34,556 nucleotides of DNA from a virus: the UHGV virus genome UHGV-0341486. One strand, 5' to 3'. The notes beneath the pieces were generated by a model, which saw only the letters and a program-made list of their open reading frames with translations, did not search any database and was not told the origin of the DNA. The translations under genes were made by a program, and so were the position numbers. Shown piece by piece: positions 289 to 17,030 of this stretch (positions are counted from its first letter, which is position 1; every line of letters begins with the position of its first letter).

Positions 289-1431
289 CTATGCTGTTTT
301 GATATCTACGATAATCCAGTCTTTACCACGATCATCATTGTATCGGTCGGTCATTTTTCTGGATTTATGGCCTAACAACTTTTGCGTATCCAGACCCTGT
401 TCCCGATATAACCGTTCTGACAGAGATCGCTGCTCATGAAATGTGGGCGCAGTTCCTTGCTCCCATTTTATGCCACATTTTTCCCGGGCCTTTTTAAAAG
501 CCGTTGTCAGAGTATTTGCAGAAACCTGGTCTCCTCTGTTTGCTTGAGAGGTAGTGTGACGGTAATGGACCAGATATTTACTAACAACAGCATCCCTGCA
601 CTGAGATATAACTTCACGAAGGGTAATATTCAGAGCATCGCATTTCAGGTTAAGCGGAATAGCAAGTTTTGAACCGGTTTTTTCCTGAGTAATGTGCAAC
701 ATGTCGTCCCATATATCAGAGAATTTCAAATTGCAGATATCGCCTAAACGTTGTCCAGTAACAAGAGCAAGTAGCATGCCGCATTTTAAATAGGGCTGCC
801 GTCTGCTTACGCTGTCAAATATTGCCTGCCATTCGGGCAGTGACAATCTTTGGCGGTTTACTCGATTTCGCGGTTGTTTTGTTGCCTGCGCTGGGTTAAA
901 TCCTGGCGGAACATGTCCTGCGTGTTGTGCTTCTTTGAAGACGTCGATCAACACCATTCTCACGACTTGCGCCATCCTGTTATGACCTTCAGCCTTTACA
1001 GCATCAATTATTTCGGCAATATCAAGTGCGGTAATATCCTTGAGGTGTTGCATTCCACAATGCTCACGGAAAAGACGAATGGGTTTGCCTTTTTGCCGAT
1101 AGGAGTTGGGTCTTAGTTCATTATGTTGCAGCCTGTCCTCTTGGATAGAAATATATTTATCAAGCCATTCTGTCACCGTAATGTCTGAGCGCCTGCCTTT
1201 CATTCTTTCCAGACGCTCATTGACGCTTAATATTTGTCTGGTACGTTGTTCAGCAATAATGGTATTTGCTTCAGTAGCAACTTGTTTTGCTTCATTCTCA
1301 TCAGTTCCTAAGCTATGAAAACGACCGGATAGTGGATGTTTGTATTGCCAATATACCTTTCCGGTTCGCTTATCTAATTTGCAATATAAATTGGGTATAG
1401 AGATTTTGTGAGATCGGGGTCTAGCAGCCAT
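289..1431 (-). CDS. int: Phage integrase, tyrosine recombinase (380 aa)
   Basis: ORF with C-terminal catalytic region (…HKSRKMTDRY…); adjacent to the attachment region; 11-nt overlap with the upstream xis ORF. Confidence 0.92.
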   Translation of the reverse strand: MAARPRSHKISIPNLYCKLDKRTGKVYWQYKHPLSGRFHSLGTDENEAKQVATEANTIIAEQRTRQILSVNERLERMKGRRSDITVTEWLDKYISIQEDRLQHNELRPNSYRQKGKPIRLFREHCGMQHLKDITALDIAEIIDAVKAEGHNRMAQVVRMVLIDVFKEAQHAGHVPPGFNPAQATKQPRNRVNRQRLSLPEWQAIFDSVSRRQPYLKCGMLLALVTGQRLGDICNLKFSDIWDDMLHITQEKTGSKLAIPLNLKCDALNITLREVISQCRDAVVSKYLVHYRHTTSQANRGDQVSANTLTTAFKKAREKCGIKWEQGTAPTFHEQRSLSERLYREQGLDTQKLLGHKSRKMTDRYNDDRGKDWIIVDIKTA

Positions 1432-2036: not shown

Positions 2037-2346
2037 TCTTGACCTTGTGTTGTGCGGATTGATATTCAGTGCTGATATTCACCTTTATAGCGAACACCTT
2101 TACCGGTTTATCGCCAAAGTGCGGATGTGTGATTGTCTTCACTTCATATCCGTCATACGGAACATCAATTCTGCGACTGGAATCGTCGCGCTTCGGATAT
2201 CCCTTTGTGATAATCAGGCGGTCATATTCCCGGAACATAATTCGCTTATTCCAGTAGTCATTACACAAGCGATACTCTTCCGTTTTCTCTCCGCGAATCA
2301 TGGCATCGAAGTATTCACTTTTAACAGCAAGTTGCAGGTTAGCCAT
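2020..2346 (-). CDS. Hypothetical protein with ASCH/PUA-like signature (…LAVKSEYFDAMIRGEKTEEYR…); start probably the second ATG
   Basis: N-terminal motif resembles ASCH/DUF3850-type domains; overlaps neighbouring ORFs as in compact phage operons. Confidence 0.45.
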   Translation of the reverse strand: MANLQLAVKSEYFDAMIRGEKTEEYRLCNDYWNKRIMFREYDRLIITKGYPKRDDSSRRIDVPYDGYEVKTITHPHFGDKPVKVFAIKVNISTEYQSAQHKVKNVQSD

Positions 2347-2567
2347 CACTTAATCCCCCTTTGTTTGCGGATAAGCTCCAGATCTTGCTGGCAACTGGCG
2401 CAAGTCCGACAACCCTGAACGGCCAGGCGTCTTCGTTCATCTATCGGATCGCCACACTCACAACAATGAGTGGCAGATACAGCCAGGTAGTTCAGGCGGC
2501 GCATTTTTATTGCTGTGTTGCGCTGTAATTCTTCTATTTCTGATGCTGAATCAATGATGTCTGCCAT
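2346..2567 (-). CDS. TraR/DksA-family C4 zinc-finger protein (73 aa; size and motif match lambda Orf73)
   Basis: CxxC…CxxC motif (…CCECGDPIDERRRLAVQGCRTCASCQ…) typical of TraR/DksA zinc fingers. Confidence 0.7.
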   Translation of the reverse strand: MADIIDSASEIEELQRNTAIKMRRLNYLAVSATHCCECGDPIDERRRLAVQGCRTCASCQQDLELIRKQRGIK

Positions 2568-2665
2568 CTTTCATTAATCCCTGAACTGTTGGTTAATACG
2601 CTTGAGGGTGAATGCGAACAATAAAAAAGGAGCCTGTAGCTCCCTGATAATTTTGCTTTTCATGT

Positions 2666-3149: not shown

Positions 3150-3310
3150 ACCGCCCCCCGTTTATTATTTATCTCCTCAGCCAGCCGCTGGGCTTTCAGC
3201 GGATTTCGGATAACAGAAAGACCGTGAAATACCCAGCCTCGCTTTGTAACGGAGTAGACGAAAGTGATCGCGCCTACCCGGATATTATCGTGAGGATGGG
3301 TCATCGCCAT
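3122..3310 (-). CDS. Hypothetical early-left protein (62 aa; lambda orf60a-like)
   Basis: Size and position immediately upstream of exo; overlaps both neighbours. Confidence 0.5.
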
Positions 3311-3981
3311 TGCTCTCCAAATACAAAACCAATTTCAGCCAGTGCTTCGTCCATTTTTTCGATGAACTCCGGCACCATCTCGTCAAAACTCGCCATGTAC
3401 TTTTCATCCCGCTCAACCACGACATAATGCAGGCCTTCACGCTTCATTCGTGGGTCATAGTTGGCAAAGTACCAGGCATCTTTTCGTGTCACCCACATGC
3501 TGTACTGCACCTGGGCCATGTAAGCCGACTTTATGGCCTCGAAACCACCGAGCCGGAACTTCATGAAATCCCGGGAGGTAAACGGGCATTTCAGCTCAAG
3601 GCCATTGCCGTCACTGCATAAACCATCGGGAGAGCAGGCGGTGCGCATACTTTCGTCGCGATAGATGATCGGGGATTCAGTAACATTCACGCCGGAAGTG
3701 AATTCAAACAGGGTTCTGGCGTCGTTCTCGTACTGTTTTCCCCACGCCAGCGCCTTAGCATTAACTTCCGGAGCCACACCGGTGCAAACCTCAGCCAGCA
3801 GGGTGTGGAAGTAGGACATTTTCATGTCAGGCCACTTCTTTCCTGAGCGGGGCTTTGCTATCACGTTGTGAACTTCTGAAGCGGTGATGACGCCGAGCCG
3901 TAATTTGTGCCATGCATCATCCCCCTGTTCGACAGCTCTCACGTCGATCCCGGTACGCTGCAGGATAATGTCCGGTGTCAT
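3301..3981 (-). CDS. exo: Lambda exonuclease (Red alpha), 226 aa
   Basis: Near-identical to recalled lambda Exo ([50 protein letters not shown]…). Confidence 0.95.
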
Positions 3982-4763
3982 GCTGCCACCTTCTGCTCAG
4001 TGGCTTTCTGTTTCAGGAATCCAAGAGCTTTCACTGCTTCGGCCTGTGTCAGTTCTGACGATGCGCGAATGTCGCGGCGAAATATCTGGGAACAGAGCGG
4101 CAATAAGTCGTCATCCCATGTTTTGTCCAGGGCAATCAGCAGAGTGTTAATCTCCTGCATGGTTTCATCGTTAACCGGAGTGATGTCGCGTTCCGGCTGA
4201 CGTTCCGCAGTGTATGCAGTATTTTCGACAATGCGCTCGGCTTCATCCTTGTCATAGATACCAGCAAATCCGAAGGCCAGACGGGCACACTGAATCATGG
4301 CTTTATGCCGTAACATCCGTTTGGGATGCGACTGCCACGGCCCCGTGATTTCTCTGCCTTCGCGAGTTTTGAATGGTTCGCGGCGGCATTCATCCATCCA
4401 TTCGGTAACGCAGATCGGATGATTGCGGTCTTTGCGGTAAATCCGGCACGTACATGATTCATTGTCCTGCTCAAAGTCCATGCCATCAAACTGCTGGTTT
4501 TCATTGATGATGCGGGACCAGCCATCAACGCCCACCACCGGAACGATGCCGTTCTGCTTATCAGGGAAGGCGTAAATTTCTTTCGTCCACGGATTAAGGC
4601 CGTACTGGTTGGCGACGATCAGCAATGCGATGAACTGCGCATCGCTGGCATCACCTTTAAATGCCGTCTGACGAAGAGTGGTGATCAGTTCCTGTGGGTC
4701 GACAGAATCCATGCCGACACGTTCAGCCAGCTTCCCAGCCAGCGTTGCGAGTGCTGTACTCAT
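3978..4763 (-). CDS. bet: Recombination protein Bet (Red beta), 261 aa
   Basis: Near-identical to recalled lambda Bet; start overlaps the exo stop region (ATGA-type coupling). Confidence 0.95.
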
Positions 4764-4768
4764 CCGTT

Positions 4769-5065
4769 TTATACCTCTGAATCAATATCAACATGGTGGT
4801 GAGCAATGGTTTCAACCATGTACCGGATGTGTTCTGCCATGCGCTCCTGAAACTCAACATCGTCATCAAACGCACGGGTAATGGCTTTTTTGCTGGCCCC
4901 GCAGCGTTGCAAATGATCGATGCAGAGTGATTCAAACAGGTGCTGTGGAAGACCTTTTTCCATGTCGTCTGCCAGTTCTGCCTCTTTCTCTTCACGGGCG
5001 ATCTGCTGGTAGTGACGCGCCCAGCTTTGAGCCTCAAGACGATCCTGAATGTAATAAGCGTTCAT
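4769..5065 (-). CDS. gam: Host-nuclease (RecBCD) inhibitor Gam, short 98-aa form
   Basis: [21 protein letters not shown]… matches lambda Gam from its internal start; AGGAG ribosome-binding site upstream. Confidence 0.92.
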
Positions 5066-5140
5066 GGCTGAACTCCTGAAAATGGCTGTGAAAATATCGC
5101 CTGCGAAATGCCGGGCTGATTAGGTAAACAGGAAAGGGGA

Positions 5141-5431
5141 TTAGTGATTCAGGCCGTTGCCGCGTCCGTCGAGAAAAACTTCCACGAGCAAATCACGGGT
5201 ATAAGTGCGCTCGATGCCGCGATGCAGATAAAGCCGTCCGCGTAAATTAGCTGATGCAGTCCAGGTACCATCTTTGTGTTTGACCAGCATTCCTGGCATG
5301 ACCGCACCGCGATTAACGGTCTGCGTTCCGTAATGTTGATGAACCATAAAAACTCCTGCCCGTAAGCTGGGCTGCTGAACATATAGAGACTTCTGCGCGT
5401 ATTCAGGCGGTGGATGGCCGCCGGTTGTCAT
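5141..5431 (-). CDS. Hypothetical protein (96 aa) in the position of lambda kil/cIII
   Basis: First ORF downstream of the leftward promoter; GAGG ribosome-binding site; no recognisable motif. Confidence 0.5.
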
Positions 5432-5619
5432 AACTAAGCCGCCTCGTTGAAGCGACTAAGGTATGAAATGTTGAGTTAATTTCAGCTGGTCACACCGACG
5501 TTCACGCGTCCGTTTCACCCCTCGCACTCCCCGAAGCCTGCTGAAATTCAAACTGCGGATCTAAGCGGTCATCGCAACGGTGAATCAGGTAGTTGCCGTA
5601 TCGTTGTGTTGTTGCGATG

Positions 5620-5700
5620 AACTTATTTAAAACTATAGTTGTTTTATCGTCAACAACAAAAGTTGTTTTATTGGTTGTTTTAGATATAACTGGTTGTATT
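5620..5700 (-). promoter_or_regulatory. Leftward early promoter/operator region (PL/OL-like): -35 TTGACG (about 5648-5653), -10 about 5625-5630, several GTTGTT/AACAAC half-sites
   Basis: Minus strand reads GTTGTTGACGATAAAACAACTATAGTTTTAAATAAG, closely parallel to the rightward element GTTGTTGACTAAAAACAACCATAGTTTTAATCTTG at 6678-6712. Confidence 0.55.
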
Positions 5701-5789
5701 TAGGATGGATTTATTTTGTGACTTGAATCGCATAGCGATAACTGAAGCGAGGTTATGGTGGTTTTTTTAACGGTGTGTGTGATGAGGGG

Positions 5790-5821
5790 AGGGCAAAAGA
5801 AAACCCGGCACGGTGACCGGG
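5790..5821 (-). terminator. Rho-independent terminator downstream of the repressor gene (stem CCCGG/CCGGG, then TTTTCTTTTG on the minus strand)
   Basis: GC stem-loop followed by a T-rich tract on the minus strand, about 120 nt past the cI stop. Confidence 0.55.
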
Positions 5822-5942
5822 ATTCTTACGCCGTTAGGTAAAGATATTATTGCGGTGGCTTAATATTACTACCTAGAGCAAAGATAGGAATTAGTTCTTT
5901 ACTGAATGAGCACAATGCCCAGTTGATAATTTTTAATTGGTA

Positions 5943-6632
5943 CTACCCATGCTTCCTATATGTCTGCGGCATGCTCCCAATAACCTTACCGAAGATGAAC
6001 ACCCGGTTCATCTCGTCTTTCTCGATCGGGTCCCACGGTGAGTAGCTTTTGTTATCAGAGATGACCAGCAGCTTATCCTTCATCATTTGCAGGCGCTTTA
6101 CATGGGCTGTGTCGTCGTACAGAAACGCATAGATACCATCACCGTCGAAAGATTTAACTGTGATATCAACGAACAGCAGATCACCTGGTTCGATCGTTCC
6201 TGACATGCTGTCACCACGCACGTTAATGATGCGGATATTTTCCGCCTTCCTACCATCGAACATGTGACGAGCATCGTCAAACGAGTACTCAACCGAGCGT
6301 AGAACTTCTACAAACTCACGGTTGATGACTCCCGGCCCAGCACTGACTTCTATATCAAGAACGTCAATCTTGAAGTATTTGGAATGGCTGACAGTTGATT
6401 GTATTGGTTGCACTGTACTGTCTGACATATTTCCAACGCCAGAAGATAACCATTCTGCGCGCACACCCAAAGCGTTCGCGATCTCCACGATTTTAGTTGT
6501 TTGATTAGCTTTCCCTGTTTCGATTTTCTGAATAGCAGCCTGGCTAACCCCGACCAAATCCCCAAGCGCCTTTTGTGTAAGGCCTCGCGCTAATCTGGCT
6601 TCTTTAAGTCTTTCTGAGAGTGTTGTTTTCAT
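5943..6632 (-). CDS. cI: Prophage repressor, CI-like: N-terminal XRE helix-turn-helix plus C-terminal S24 (LexA-like) autopeptidase domain; probable start MKTTLSERLKE, 229 aa
   Basis: HTH motif (…LTQKALGDLVGVSQAAIQKIETGK…), Ala-Gly cleavage site (VSAGPG), Ser (GDSMSG) and Lys (VKRL) catalytic dyad; divergent from the cro-like gene across an operator region. Confidence 0.88.
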   Translation of the reverse strand: MKTTLSERLKEARLARGLTQKALGDLVGVSQAAIQKIETGKANQTTKIVEIANALGVRAEWLSSGVGNMSDSTVQPIQSTVSHSKYFKIDVLDIEVSAGPGVINREFVEVLRSVEYSFDDARHMFDGRKAENIRIINVRGDSMSGTIEPGDLLFVDITVKSFDGDGIYAFLYDDTAHVKRLQMMKDKLLVISDNKSYSPWDPIEKDEMNRVFIFGKVIGSMPQTYRKHG

Positions 6633-6639
6633 AGTCCAA

Positions 6640-6736
6640 ATGTACAACCAAGGTTTTATTCCATCAAACGAAAATGGTTGTTGACTAAAAACAACCATAG
6701 TTTTAATCTTGATTCAAATTAACCACGGAGGTTGTT
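6640..6736 (+). promoter_or_regulatory. Rightward operator/promoter region (OR/PR-like): perfect 25-bp palindrome ATGGTTGTT-GACTAAA-AACAACCAT (6674-6698) overlapping -35 TTGACT (6681-6686); further GGTTGTT half-sites at about 6645-6650 and 6730-6736
   Basis: Inverted repeat with 9-bp arms read directly from the sequence, in the divergent cI/cro intergenic region. Confidence 0.7.
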
Positions 6737-6967
6737 ATGAACCCAGCTATCAAAACAGCGATCAATATCGTTGGTTCACAAAAGAAACTGGGCGCTGCTT
6801 GCGAAGTTTCACAGCAGGCCGTCTATAAGTGGCTTCACAACAAAGCAAAGGTATCCCCTGAACATGTCGGCAGCATTGTTACGGCTACTGGTGGAGTAGT
6901 GAAGGCATACCAGATTCGCCCGGATCTTCCGAAGTTGTTTCCACACACCGAAAAGAACGCAGCTTAA
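6737..6967 (+). CDS. cro: Cro-like early regulator (76 aa), YdaS/DUF1019-type HTH
   Basis: Small HTH protein (…GSQKKLGAACEVSQQAVYKWL…) divergent from the repressor; GGAGG ribosome-binding site 6 nt upstream. Confidence 0.8.
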   Translation: MNPAIKTAINIVGSQKKLGAACEVSQQAVYKWLHNKAKVSPEHVGSIVTATGGVVKAYQIRPDLPKLFPHTEKNAA

Positions 6968-6979
6968 ATTTCCATTTCA

Positions 6980-6993
6980 CGCTCTTTAACAAT
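6980..6993 (+). promoter_or_regulatory. boxA-like antitermination element CGCTCTTTAACAAT
   Basis: Matches the boxA consensus (rrn boxA GCTCTTTAACAAT) just downstream of cro, where lambda has nutR. Confidence 0.5.
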
Positions 6994-7036
6994 AAGCAAT
7001 CAACTTAACAGTCAATTCAAACTAAAGGAGTCAATT

Positions 7037-7576
7037 ATGCAACCACTTACATACCAACAGACTAGCGGATTTAGCCCGACTGCGGTGATAAATCGTTCTC
7101 AAACAAAACAGGTGCCAGGCCACGAAAAAATCCGTGATGCCGTCCGCGCCTGGTCGGCTGTAGATAATCAGGATGTCGTTGCCACACTCATTGTGAATGA
7201 GTATCTGGAGCAGGGCGGCGGCACCATCGATTTCCCTGATGATGTCAGCCGTGCACGCCAGAAGCTGTTCCGCTTCCTCGATAACAAATTCGATTCTGAA
7301 AAATACCGAAATAACGTGCGTGAACTGACCCCGGCAATTCTGGCGGTACTACCGCTGGAATATCGCGGTTACCTGGTTGAGCAGGATAGCTTCATGGCTA
7401 GGTTGGCTGAAATGGAAAAGGAACTCAGTGAGGCAAAACAGGCTGTCATTCTCAACGCACCACGCCACCAGAAACTGAAGGAAATTAGTGAAGGTATTGT
7501 GTCGATGTTTCGTGTGGACCCAGATCTGGCTGGTCCATTGATGGCGATGGTTACTACCATGCTGGGGGCGATATGA
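7037..7576 (+). CDS. CII-position regulatory protein, YdaT-like (179 aa)
   Basis: Position between cro and O; motifs EYLEQGGG and PAILAVLP recalled from Rac YdaT-family proteins. Confidence 0.5.
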   Translation: MQPLTYQQTSGFSPTAVINRSQTKQVPGHEKIRDAVRAWSAVDNQDVVATLIVNEYLEQGGGTIDFPDDVSRARQKLFRFLDNKFDSEKYRNNVRELTPAILAVLPLEYRGYLVEQDSFMARLAEMEKELSEAKQAVILNAPRHQKLKEISEGIVSMFRVDPDLAGPLMAMVTTMLGAI

Positions 7577-16890: not shown

Positions 16891-16914
16891 GCCAGCTACA
16901 TGCTGGCTTTTTTA
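16891..16914 (+). terminator. Rho-independent terminator (tR'-like, second): stem GCCAGC / GCTGGC, loop TACAT, then TTTTTTATT
   Basis: Perfect 6-bp stem followed by six T. Confidence 0.75.
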
Positions 16915-17030
16915 TTCCAGGCTTGCGGGGAGCATCAACTCCGTGCTTTGTCGTTAAATTACCCCGTGAGCCTGATTTCTGACATTTAACGTCCCGGCCT
17001 TTTGTCGGCGGCGAAACATTGGCTATTCAT

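What the first reader, a model, noticed from the sequence alone, without database searches (positions are those of the whole stretch)
5432..5942. No N-like antiterminator ORF between the repressor and the recombination genes; compact leftward promoter region
Lambda has N, rexAB, sieB, ral and cIII between cI and gam. Here there are only about 510 bp without any ORF of 60 aa or more, then a 96-aa unknown protein, then gam. The leftward promoter/operator cluster (about 5620-5700) is separated from the repressor gene by a terminator (5790-5821), and the roughly 190-nt leader (5432-5617) contains inverted repeats, for example CATCGCAAC…GTTGCGATG at about 5570-5617. Either antitermination is protein-independent (a structured RNA element of the HK022 put type), or a factor is encoded elsewhere, or the early-left operon has no terminators to bypass.
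Basis: inference. Interest (0 to 1): 0.5.

Follow-up and report, generated by a model that had tools for sequence, protein, structure and literature searches.

The report
N-less leftward control region, lambdoid prophage
This is the leftward promoter and a conserved non-coding leader of a common, viable family of E. coli lambda-like phages that have no N antiterminator gene and no HK022-type antiterminator RNA, so their cell-division-inhibitor and recombination genes are probably read straight from the promoter.

Summary
Between the repressor gene (5943-6632, minus strand) and gam there is no ORF of 60 aa or more. There is only a terminator, the operator/promoter cluster, a non-coding leader and a Kil gene.

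The "96-aa unknown" is a KilR-type cell-division inhibitor. Its real start is probably ATG 5347, which gives 68 aa.

The leader (5618-5348) is shared almost unchanged by phages of three immunity types. It varies less than silent sites of the neighbouring genes.

A covariance model of HK022 put RNA recovers known and unseen put sites but finds nothing here. The leader has no boxA or boxB, and no second copy exists in the rightward operon. The 31-codon Arg-rich ORF is not maintained among relatives.

One leader hairpin (5457-5437) shows strong covariation. It is homologous to the hairpin upstream of lambda cIII.

Compared with lambda, the whole N-to-cIII segment with its terminators is absent. 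The most likely reading is therefore an N-independent early-left operon. How these phages pass the terminators further along both early operons is still open.

This is an ordinary member of a known kind, with a modest open question.

The parts
5943..6632 (-). cI-type repressor (HTH plus S24 peptidase). The mechanical ORF extends to 6698, inside OR.
   Evidence: Pfam HTH_3 and Peptidase_S24. Annotated cI in PhiR34_1.
5847..5915 (-). Relic of the 3' end of a gevA/ASCH-type cargo gene (...ALGSNIKPPQ, then a stop). It is a scar of a lost rex-position cargo module.
   Evidence: The 22-aa ORF matches the C-terminus of GevA of PhiR47_2. DNA homology to gevA-carrying phages runs up to 5901 (hits H3-H9).
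5794..5821 (-). Intrinsic terminator of the immunity (cI) transcript.
   Evidence: Conserved in all class A relatives and in 4A7.
5627..5700 (.). OL operator cluster, the immunity-specific block.
   Evidence: Motifs shared with OR. The hypervariable block 5712-5619 differs between immunity types.
5625..5653 (-). PL promoter: -35 TTGACG (5653-5648), 17-nt spacer, -10 TTAAAT (5630-5625). Inferred start at A5618.
   Evidence: Read from the sequence. In register with TTGATA-17-TATTAT of 4A7, which the scan tool finds. The immunity block ends at 5619. The start site is an inference.
5569..5620 (-). 5'-terminal stem-loop of the PL transcript: 8 bp from the first transcribed base, 10 bp in the DNA repeat, 32-nt loop.
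   Evidence: pair I8. Kept in three immunity types; type 3 uses AUUGCA/UGCGAU. Small 5' hairpins follow AUCG in other genera.
5466..5568 (-). Clade-specific, G-rich middle part of the leader. It holds the 31-codon Arg-rich pseudo-ORF (5551-5456) and an imperfect 12-bp inverted repeat (5548-5537 with 5489-5478).
5437..5465 (-). Conserved CAUACC motif plus a 9-bp hairpin (AGUCGCUUC-AAC-GAGGCGGCU). Its 3' arm carries an invariant GAG(G), a Shine-Dalgarno-like sequence, at 5445-5442.
   Evidence: Covariation: 97.6% of cells paired, 6 of 9 pairs changed on both sides, score 0.763 against 0.267 in shuffles, 0 of 500 shuffles as high. Homologous to lambda 33522-33483, upstream of cIII.
5406..5431 (-). 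AUG followed by the conserved block GGCGG-CCAUCCA-CCGCC. It is conserved as nucleotides, and relatives read it in different frames.
5141..5347 (-). kil (KilR-type FtsZ inhibitor), 68 aa, with Shine-Dalgarno AGGAG at 5357-5353.
   Evidence: PHROG 294. Codon periodicity begins only at 5347. 4A7 is annotated with the 68-aa form.
6981..6993 (+). rrn-type boxA (GCTCTTTAACAAT), 14 nt after the cro stop codon. No boxB follows it.
   Evidence: the only match in the window. Present in 18 fetched loci that share this cro-cII spacer and absent from the 4A7 spacer.
2627..2645 (-). First good intrinsic terminator of the leftward operon, downstream of exo and before the TraR-like gene, xis and int.
   Evidence: Conserved in 4A7 at 30867-30853.

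Best explanation
The interval is the left boundary of the immunity region of a lambdoid prophage of the Bievrevirus-like group. That group has no N gene and no nutL.

After the repressor is inactivated, RNA polymerase starts at PL, at about A5618. It transcribes a conserved non-coding leader of about 271 nt and runs directly into kil, gam, bet and exo.

The lambda segment that holds N, sieB, ral, ea10, cIII and the terminators tL1 and tL2a is simply not there. These genes therefore need no dedicated processive antiterminator.

The leader is a regulatory RNA region, not an antiterminator.
- A stem that begins at the first transcribed base probably protects the message.
- A covarying hairpin is homologous to the one upstream of lambda cIII. 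It buries a Shine-Dalgarno-like GAGG just before a short, non-conserved upstream ORF. It probably tunes translation, or weakly attenuates transcription, ahead of the toxic kil gene.

Shown: the anatomy, the conservation, the covariation, the absence of N, nut and put, and the lack of strong intrinsic terminators before exo.
Inferred: the start site, the roles of the two hairpins, and that read-through suffices further along.
For: - No ORF of 60 aa or more in the interval.
- The first gene is Kil.
- The same leader occurs in 16 sequenced phages and in 2239 of 5426 complete E. coli genomes. It occurs with three different operator/promoter sets.
- Phages 4C10 and 4A7 carry this leader, and 4A7 has no annotated N. 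Both are SOS-inducible plaque formers (bioRxiv 10.64898/2026.05.26.727859).
- Leader sites vary less than fourfold-degenerate sites of kil, gam and bet: 28 of 221 against 56 of 169 segregating, Fisher p = 1.7e-6.
- The put model is negative while its positive controls score. Rfam finds nothing. The leader has no boxA and no motif shared with the rightward operon.
- Between PL and exo only one weak terminator-like site is found. Lambda has two good ones upstream of kil.
- Hairpin covariation and its lambda homology.
- In Citrobacter, Kluyvera, Silvania and Enterobacter, kil relatives also sit 80-200 nt from a repressor-controlled promoter, with no N.
- In Rac, the kilR 5' UTR yields the small RNA KilS (PMC8175672), and kilR expression rises when the termination factor NusG is lowered (PMC5793797). 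Control of kil by transcription termination therefore has a precedent.
Against: - A good intrinsic terminator (2645-2627) lies between exo and xis/int.
- Strong terminators lie between P and Q, here at 13103-13123 and in viable 4A7 at 39589-39614 and 41663-41684. Some way of passing terminators, or internal promoters, must exist and is not identified.
- The conservation of the middle of the leader (5568-5466) is not explained by the two hairpins.
- A 271-nt untranslated leader should be exposed to Rho, and nothing here shows how that is avoided.
- The predicted -10 (TTAAAT) lacks the usual A at its second position. The start site is not measured.
Confidence: 0.5

Rival explanations
1. The conserved leader, or its CAUACC-hairpin-GGCGG...CCGCC module, is a new cis-acting RNA, unrelated in sequence to put. 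It would make RNA polymerase resistant to terminators without a phage protein.
For: - The leader is under constraint.
- It sits immediately after PL, as putL does.
- It contains a hairpin proven by covariation, followed by a second conserved GC hairpin.
- Viable relatives have terminators downstream in both early operons and no known antiterminator other than Q.
Against: - No counterpart exists in the rightward operon, where terminators lie between P and Q.
- Overall folding energy is ordinary, z = -0.52.
- The covarying hairpin is also present in lambda, which needs N. In phi80-type phages it lies after a terminator, not before it.
- Leaders of kil-first operons in other genera are not homologous and can be only about 80 nt long.
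Confidence: 0.12
2. Antitermination is supplied in trans. The source would be either an unrecognised phage protein encoded elsewhere, or host Nus factors recruited by the rrn-type boxA after cro (a host-only, rrn-like complex acting against Rho).
For: - A perfect 13-nt rrn boxA lies where nutR would be.
- In mEp021 the N-like gene lies in the right operon, so position is not fixed (PMC11893012).
- Terminators exist downstream.
Against: - boxA is absent from the PL leader, and absent from the cro-cII spacer of the other immunity type that shares the same leader.
- No Arg-rich motif lies in any real gene frame of the window.
- No antiterminator other than Q is annotated in 4A7.
- rrn-type complexes act mainly on Rho-dependent terminators, not intrinsic ones (established knowledge).
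Confidence: 0.15
3. The Arg-rich ORF is a miniature N-like peptide. It would be either the 31 codons found here, or the N-terminal extension of a 128-aa long Kil found in most relatives.
For: - It contains RLRGVRGVKRTRERR, which resembles the lambda N motif TRRRERR.
- In 18 of 30 distinct relatives it is in frame with kil.
- PhiR47_2 is annotated with a 128-aa Kil.
Against: - It has a TTG start with no Shine-Dalgarno sequence.
- An in-frame stop is present in 8 of 30 distinct sequences and frameshifts in 4 of 30.
- Changes are 5 synonymous to 9 non-synonymous, as expected without coding constraint.
- There is no tblastn match to any N protein in 50,697 phage records and no PHROG match.
- No boxB-like hairpin is repeated in both operons.
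Confidence: 0.05
4. The arrangement is a recent deletion in a decaying prophage that has lost N.
For: - The rex-position cargo was indeed deleted here, leaving the gevA relic at 5847-5915.
- The homology boundary with phi80-type phages lies inside the T-tract of their first terminator.
- The middle of the leader weakly resembles the lambda N leader: score 35 against 20.7 +/- 4.0, reached by 1 of 300 shuffles.
Against: - The same leader is present in thousands of genomes and in plaque-forming phages, and it is under constraint.
- No relative with this leader carries N.
- The gene in the phi80 N slot is one of many unrelated genes and has no Arg-rich motif.
- The 130-nt middle part is not a subset of the phi80 leader: score 27 against a shuffle mean of 25.5.
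Confidence: 0.03

Closest known systems
Lambda PL-nutL-N early-left region
   Same: - The order is the same: repressor, immunity terminator, OL/PL, a leader of about 200 nt, then genes leading to gam-bet-exo.
- gam, bet and exo resemble the lambda genes.
- The hairpin at 5457-5437 with its flanks is homologous to lambda 33522-33483, upstream of cIII.
   Different: - There is no N, nutL (boxA plus boxB), sieB, ral, ea10 or cIII.
- The terminators that lambda has upstream of kil are missing.
- Kil is of the KilR type, not the lambda Kil type.
HK022 / HK639 put RNA (protein-independent antitermination)
   Same: There is no N-type antiterminator, and a structured RNA starts at or near the first base of the PL transcript.
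   Different: - There is no match to a put covariance model that finds unseen putR sites.
- There is no second copy in the PR operon.
- The conserved put core, GGCGGG.TCAGGA.GA.CGGCAAT, was not seen when I read the leader by eye.
Rac prophage racR-kilS-kilR region of E. coli K-12
   Same: - A KilR-type gene lies in a repressor-controlled leftward operon with no N.
- In Rac the non-coding kil leader yields a small RNA (PMC8175672).
- kilR expression rises when NusG is lowered (PMC5793797).
   Different: [quoted passage not shown]
- Rac has sieB, ydaF and ydaG between racR and kilR.
- Rac uses recET, not gam-bet-exo.
phi80 early-left region (X13065)
   Same: - The operator/promoter layout is similar, and the first 21 nt or so of the transcript are similar.
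- The CATACC-hairpin-ATGACAACCGG junction is nearly the same (85% over 62 nt, with 4 gap positions).
   Different: - phi80-type phages have a leader of about 410 nt, which carries an rrn-like boxA (CUGCUUUUUAACAA) in 23 of 60 loci examined. A variable first gene and a terminator then precede the junction.
- Here 130 unrelated nucleotides stand in their place.

Membership tests
Lambda-type N/nut antitermination | A small N protein with an Arg-rich motif, encoded as the first gene of the PL operon. | tested here: not met
   No ORF of 60 aa or more. The 31-codon Arg-rich ORF has no Shine-Dalgarno sequence, is polymorphic for stops and frameshifts, and has no N homologue.
Lambda-type N/nut antitermination | nutL in the PL leader (boxA followed by a boxB hairpin), with a matching nutR. 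| tested here: not met
   No boxA within 2 mismatches in the leader, and none in 40 of 41 class A upstream stretches; the one match lies outside the leader. No motif is shared between the leader and the right operon. A boxA without boxB lies after cro.
HK022 put RNA | A two-stem RNA of about 70 nt with the conserved put core, detectable with a covariance model. | tested here: not met
   Model R1 scores 52-100 bits on put sites, including three not used in training (L131, L128). The best window hit is 9.5 bits at 2072-2148.
HK022 put RNA | Related copies downstream of both PL and PR. | tested here: not met
   No significant similarity between the leader and 6700-17000 on the plus strand.
HK022 put RNA | Activity depends on the zinc-binding domain of the RNA polymerase beta' subunit. 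| not testable with these tools
   This needs genetics or biochemistry.
rrn-type (boxA / Nus factor) antitermination | A consensus boxA in the nascent transcript, promoter-proximal. | tested here: inconclusive
   Met for PR (GCTCTTTAACAAT at 6981-6993). Not met for PL. Absent from the other immunity type that shares the leader.
Rac-type kil-first early-left operon | A KilR-type inhibitor as the first gene after a repressor-controlled leftward promoter, with no N. | tested here: met
   PHROG 294, E = 1e-38. The same layout occurs in other genera.
Rac-type kil-first early-left operon | A leader homologous to the KilS small RNA, or Rho-dependent silencing of kil. | tested here: not met
   No similarity to the Rac kilS region. 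Rho dependence cannot be tested here.
Conserved lambdoid PL-operon hairpin (upstream of lambda cIII) | CAUACC, then a hairpin with a CUUC/GAGG top, then GUUAUG. | tested here: met
   Alignment score 32 against 18.1 +/- 3.3 in shuffles, 0 of 500 as high, and it is the best match in the lambda PL operon. Covariation in 28 variants.

The most novel reading that the evidence does not exclude
The conserved leader is a new kind of cis-acting RNA that lets host RNA polymerase pass the terminators of the early operons without any phage protein. The candidate parts are its clade-specific middle part, or the CAUACC-hairpin-GGCGG...CCGCC module shared with phi80-type phages. It would be a second, put-unrelated solution to early antitermination in lambdoid phages.
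Probability: 0.1. Interest if true: 0.7.

Novelty: new member of a known kind. Interest (0 to 1): 0.33.

Why it matters
Lambda-like phages without N are usually dismissed with "perhaps put-like", as was done for phage LLS (PMC12315714). Here that guess was tested for a very common E. coli lineage and fails.

Viable members nevertheless carry good terminators before xis/int and between P and Q. The lineage is therefore a clean, tractable case for asking how early gene expression proceeds without N or put.

The covarying hairpin shared with lambda and phi80-type phages is a defined, testable RNA element next to a toxic gene.

Tried and rejected
- Rfam at E up to 10 over 4700-7100: only chance hits.
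- Minimum-free-energy folding of the leader: z = -0.52, and the predicted structure changes between runs. Global structure prediction was therefore not used.
- Covariation in the middle of the leader: relatives are 94-100% identical, so there is no power.
- More distant leader homologues. Distant blastn against phages gave only the same clade. Kil-anchored loci in other genera have non-homologous leaders.
- Arg-rich motif scan in six frames: hits only in non-gene frames, apart from the leader ORF and a short open frame at 15904-15939 that was not followed up.
- Rac KilS homology: none.
- Pairing of the common polymorphisms 5534 and 5513 as a compensatory pair: checked by hand against several candidate helices, with no fit.
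- Similarity of the middle of the leader to the lambda N leader: weak. I kept it only as a lead.
- Literature searches for descriptions of N-less lambdoid phages or of GevAT gave nothing useful. The phi80/Lula genome paper is not held.

Full report
**What the window is**

The window is a lambdoid prophage of E. coli.
- On the minus strand it carries int (289-1431), xis, exo (3301-3981), bet (3978-4763), gam (4769-5065), a Kil gene (5141-5431 as a mechanical ORF) and a cI-type repressor (5943-6632).
- On the plus strand it carries a YdaS/Cro-type gene (6737-6967), a YdaT-type gene in the cII position (7037-7576), lambda-like O and P, and a Q gene at 16020-16709.
- The stretch 5100-6000 is 100% identical in many complete E. 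coli genomes. It matches 2239 of 5426 genomes.
- It is 99% identical to phages PhiR34_1 and Turner. It is 88-98% identical over most or part of its length to 14 further sequenced phage records, including Bievrevirus 4A7 and 4C10.

**Check of the observation**

- No ORF of 60 aa or more lies in 5432-5942.
- The terminator (stem 5821-5804, minus strand, then a T-run) is found by the scan. It is conserved in relatives.
- The operator cluster shares its repeats with OR.
- The "96-aa unknown protein" is a Kil-family protein (PHROG 294, E = 1e-38).

**Comparative anatomy**

An exact-pattern scan for the start of the 96-aa ORF returned 120 viral contigs.

About 44 of them ("class A") share the whole stretch from the terminator to kil.
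- Within class A there are two operator/promoter types. They differ strongly at 5712-5619 and become nearly identical from 5618 onward.
- A third type (L051, L119) joins at about 5584.
- The immunity module therefore ends at 5619.
- The hexamers TTGACG (5653-5648) and TTAAAT (5630-5625), 17 nt apart, lie in register with TTGATA-17-TATTAT of 4A7, which the scan tool reports. They place the start at A5618. This is an inference.

Between cI and the terminator, relatives carry many unrelated cargo genes: GevAT, a kinase, a PP2C phosphatase, a PIN protein and others. This window has only a 3' relic of gevA at 5847-5915. That deletion is why the region looks so compact.

**The true extent of the leader**

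- Codon periodicity of variation begins only at ATG 5347. Segregating sites by codon position are 1, 3 and 14 of 68.
- That ATG has a good Shine-Dalgarno sequence (AGGAG, 5357-5353).
- The 84 nt from 5431 to 5348 show no periodicity (3, 2 and 5 of 28).
- The same nucleotide blocks are read in other frames in relatives.
- Kil is therefore most likely 68 aa, as annotated in 4A7. The leader is 5618-5348, about 271 nt.
- It varies less than fourfold-degenerate sites of kil, gam and bet: 28 of 221 against 56 of 169 segregating sites, Fisher p = 1.7e-6. It is under constraint, although different segment histories could contribute to this result.

**Test for N**

The only candidate is a 31-codon ORF (5551-5456) that encodes RLRGVRGVKRTRERR.
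- It starts with TTG and has no Shine-Dalgarno sequence.
- Among 30 distinct relatives, 8 have the in-frame stop, 4 have frameshifts and 18 are open into kil.
- Changes are 5 synonymous to 9 non-synonymous.
- tblastn against 50,697 phage records finds only the same clade, and PHROGs finds nothing.
- No other Arg-rich stretch lies in a real gene frame.
- 4A7 has no annotated N.

The gene called N in the old phi80 record has no Arg-rich motif. It is one of many unrelated genes that occupy that slot in phi80-type contigs.

**Test for nut**

- The only boxA in the window is GCTCTTTAACAA at 6981-6992, just after cro.
- None lies in the leader. Of 41 class A upstream stretches, 40 have no boxA-like match, and the one match lies outside the leader.
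- No sequence is shared between the leader and the rightward operon.
- The boxA is present in 18 fetched loci that share this cro-cII spacer, and absent from the 30-nt cro-cII spacer of 4A7.

**Test for put**

I aligned putL and putR of HK022 with putL-like sites of HK639, phiEt88, CobraSix, S9-5, UPF_BP1 and PdC23.
- The consensus shows the published two-stem structure, with covariation in stem II.
- A covariance model built from it scores 93-100 bits on five training putL sites and 65.5 and 54.8 bits on the other two training sites.
- It scores 52-55 bits on putR sites of UPF_BP1 and phiEt88 that were not in the training set.
- It finds nothing in the leader or near cro. The best window hit is 9.5 bits, elsewhere.
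- Rfam gives nothing.
- Folding energy of the leader is ordinary, z = -0.52.

**What the leader does contain**

First, a stem that starts at the first transcribed base: AUCGCAAC with GUUGCGAU.
- It is kept in all three immunity types. In the third type a different 5' arm, AUUGCA, pairs with the same 3' arm.
- In Silvania, Enterobacter, Kluyvera and Citrobacter, kil-first operons also begin with AUCG followed by a small hairpin.
- It is established for E. coli messages such as ompA that a 5'-terminal stem protects mRNA. Its role here is an inference.

Second, the motif CAUACC plus a 9-bp hairpin at 5457-5437.
- In 28 distinct variants, 97.6% of cells pair, against 72.9% in shuffles.
- Six of the nine pairs change on both sides.
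- The covariation score is 0.763 against 0.267, with 0 of 500 shuffles as high. Slid controls are at most 0.11.
- The top of the stem (UUC/GAG) never varies on the GAG side. That GAG(G) lies 10 nt before AUG 5431.
- The ORF from that AUG is 15-21 codons in most phi80-type contigs and has no conserved product.
- The following block, GGCGG-CCAUCCA-CCGCC, is conserved whatever the reading frame.
- The element is homologous to lambda 33522-33483, just upstream of cIII. The alignment score is 32 against 18.1 +/- 3.3 in shuffles, with 0 of 500 as high.
- In lambda the hairpin is followed by a better U-tract and by a three-codon ORF ending in the cIII Shine-Dalgarno sequence. The scan tool lists it as terminator-like. 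From memory, this lies in the tL2 region of lambda. One paper places tL2a between ea10 and ral (bioRxiv 10.1101/2024.10.31.621285).
- In phi80-type contigs the element directly follows a terminator. Homology with class A begins inside that T-tract.

**Are there terminators to bypass?**

- Between PL and the end of exo, the scan finds only one weak site, inside kil (5198-5182). The same scan on lambda finds two good ones upstream of kil.
- Further left there is a good terminator at 2645-2627, conserved in 4A7.
- In the rightward operon, strong terminators follow inserted cargo genes between P and Q. Here this is 13103-13123; in 4A7 they are 39589-39614 and 41663-41684.
- 4A7 and 4C10 are nevertheless inducible plaque formers.

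**Conclusion**

The early-left recombination and kil genes of this lineage most likely need no dedicated antiterminator, because the lambda N-to-cIII segment with its terminators is absent. The leader is a constrained regulatory RNA region, not a put element and not a nut site.

How transcription passes the distal left terminator and the terminators before Q is not explained by anything found here.

Precedent for control of kil by termination exists in Rac. There the kilR 5' UTR yields the small RNA KilS (PMC8175672), and lowering NusG raises kilR expression (PMC5793797). The Rac leader is not homologous to this one.

Noticed in passing
window 6981-6993 (+): A perfect rrn-type boxA (GCTCTTTAACAAT) lies 14 nt after the cro stop, with no boxB hairpin after it. 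It is present in 18 fetched loci that share this cro-cII spacer and absent from the 30-nt cro-cII spacer of 4A7. It may recruit host Nus factors without N.
   Followed up: partly
window 9540-13123 (+) and 13128-14171 (-): A 1183-aa invasin/intimin-like gene sits between P and the nin genes. It is followed by a strong bidirectional terminator (13103-13123) and a reverse-oriented esterase gene (BD-FAE / alpha-beta hydrolase). The terminator lies across the path from PR to Q.
   Followed up: no
L002 4729-6157; L003 4724-6140; many IMG/VR loci: The slot between cI and the immunity terminator (the lambda rexAB position) holds many unrelated cargo modules in relatives: GevAT, a Ser/Thr kinase, a PP2C phosphatase, a PIN protein, membrane proteins. 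This suggests a defence-gene hotspot.
   Followed up: partly
L005 (phi80 X13065) 729-1139 (-) and about 60 IMG/VR loci: phi80-type phages share a PL leader of about 410 nt. Its first 46 nt are almost invariant. In 23 of 60 loci it contains a hairpin followed by an rrn-like boxA (CUGCUUUUUAACAA). The first gene after it is highly variable, and the phi80 'N' is just one of many.
   Followed up: partly
L006 (lambda) locus 2513-2484, lambda coordinates about 33512-33483: Upstream of cIII, lambda carries the homologue of the covarying hairpin. It is followed by GUUAUG, which starts a three-codon ORF (AUG UAU AAA UAA). The stop of that ORF overlaps the cIII Shine-Dalgarno sequence.
   Followed up: partly
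L136-L142, about 100-330 nt upstream of kil (locus position 2501): In Citrobacter, Kluyvera, Silvania and Enterobacter, kil leaders share a different conserved block, GUUCCGCCAGCCUGGCGACAAGG. Some also have a long hairpin (GAGCUUCGCGGUGGUG...CACCACCAGCGAAGUUC). Neither was studied further.
   Followed up: no
window 5551-5141 (-); L002 4042-4428: In most relatives the Arg-rich ORF, the short upstream ORF and kil form one open frame of 128 codons, annotated as Kil in PhiR47_2. In this window a TAG at 5458-5456 breaks that frame.
   Followed up: yes
window 2346-2567 (-): A TraR/DksA-type zinc-finger protein (73 aa) is the first gene after the left terminator at 2645-2627. Proteins of this family bind the secondary channel of RNA polymerase. 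Any link to transcription control of the phage is untested.
   Followed up: no
window 15904-15942 (+): A short open frame with an Arg-rich stretch ([12 protein letters not shown]) and a terminator-like hairpin lie between rusA and Q.
   Followed up: no
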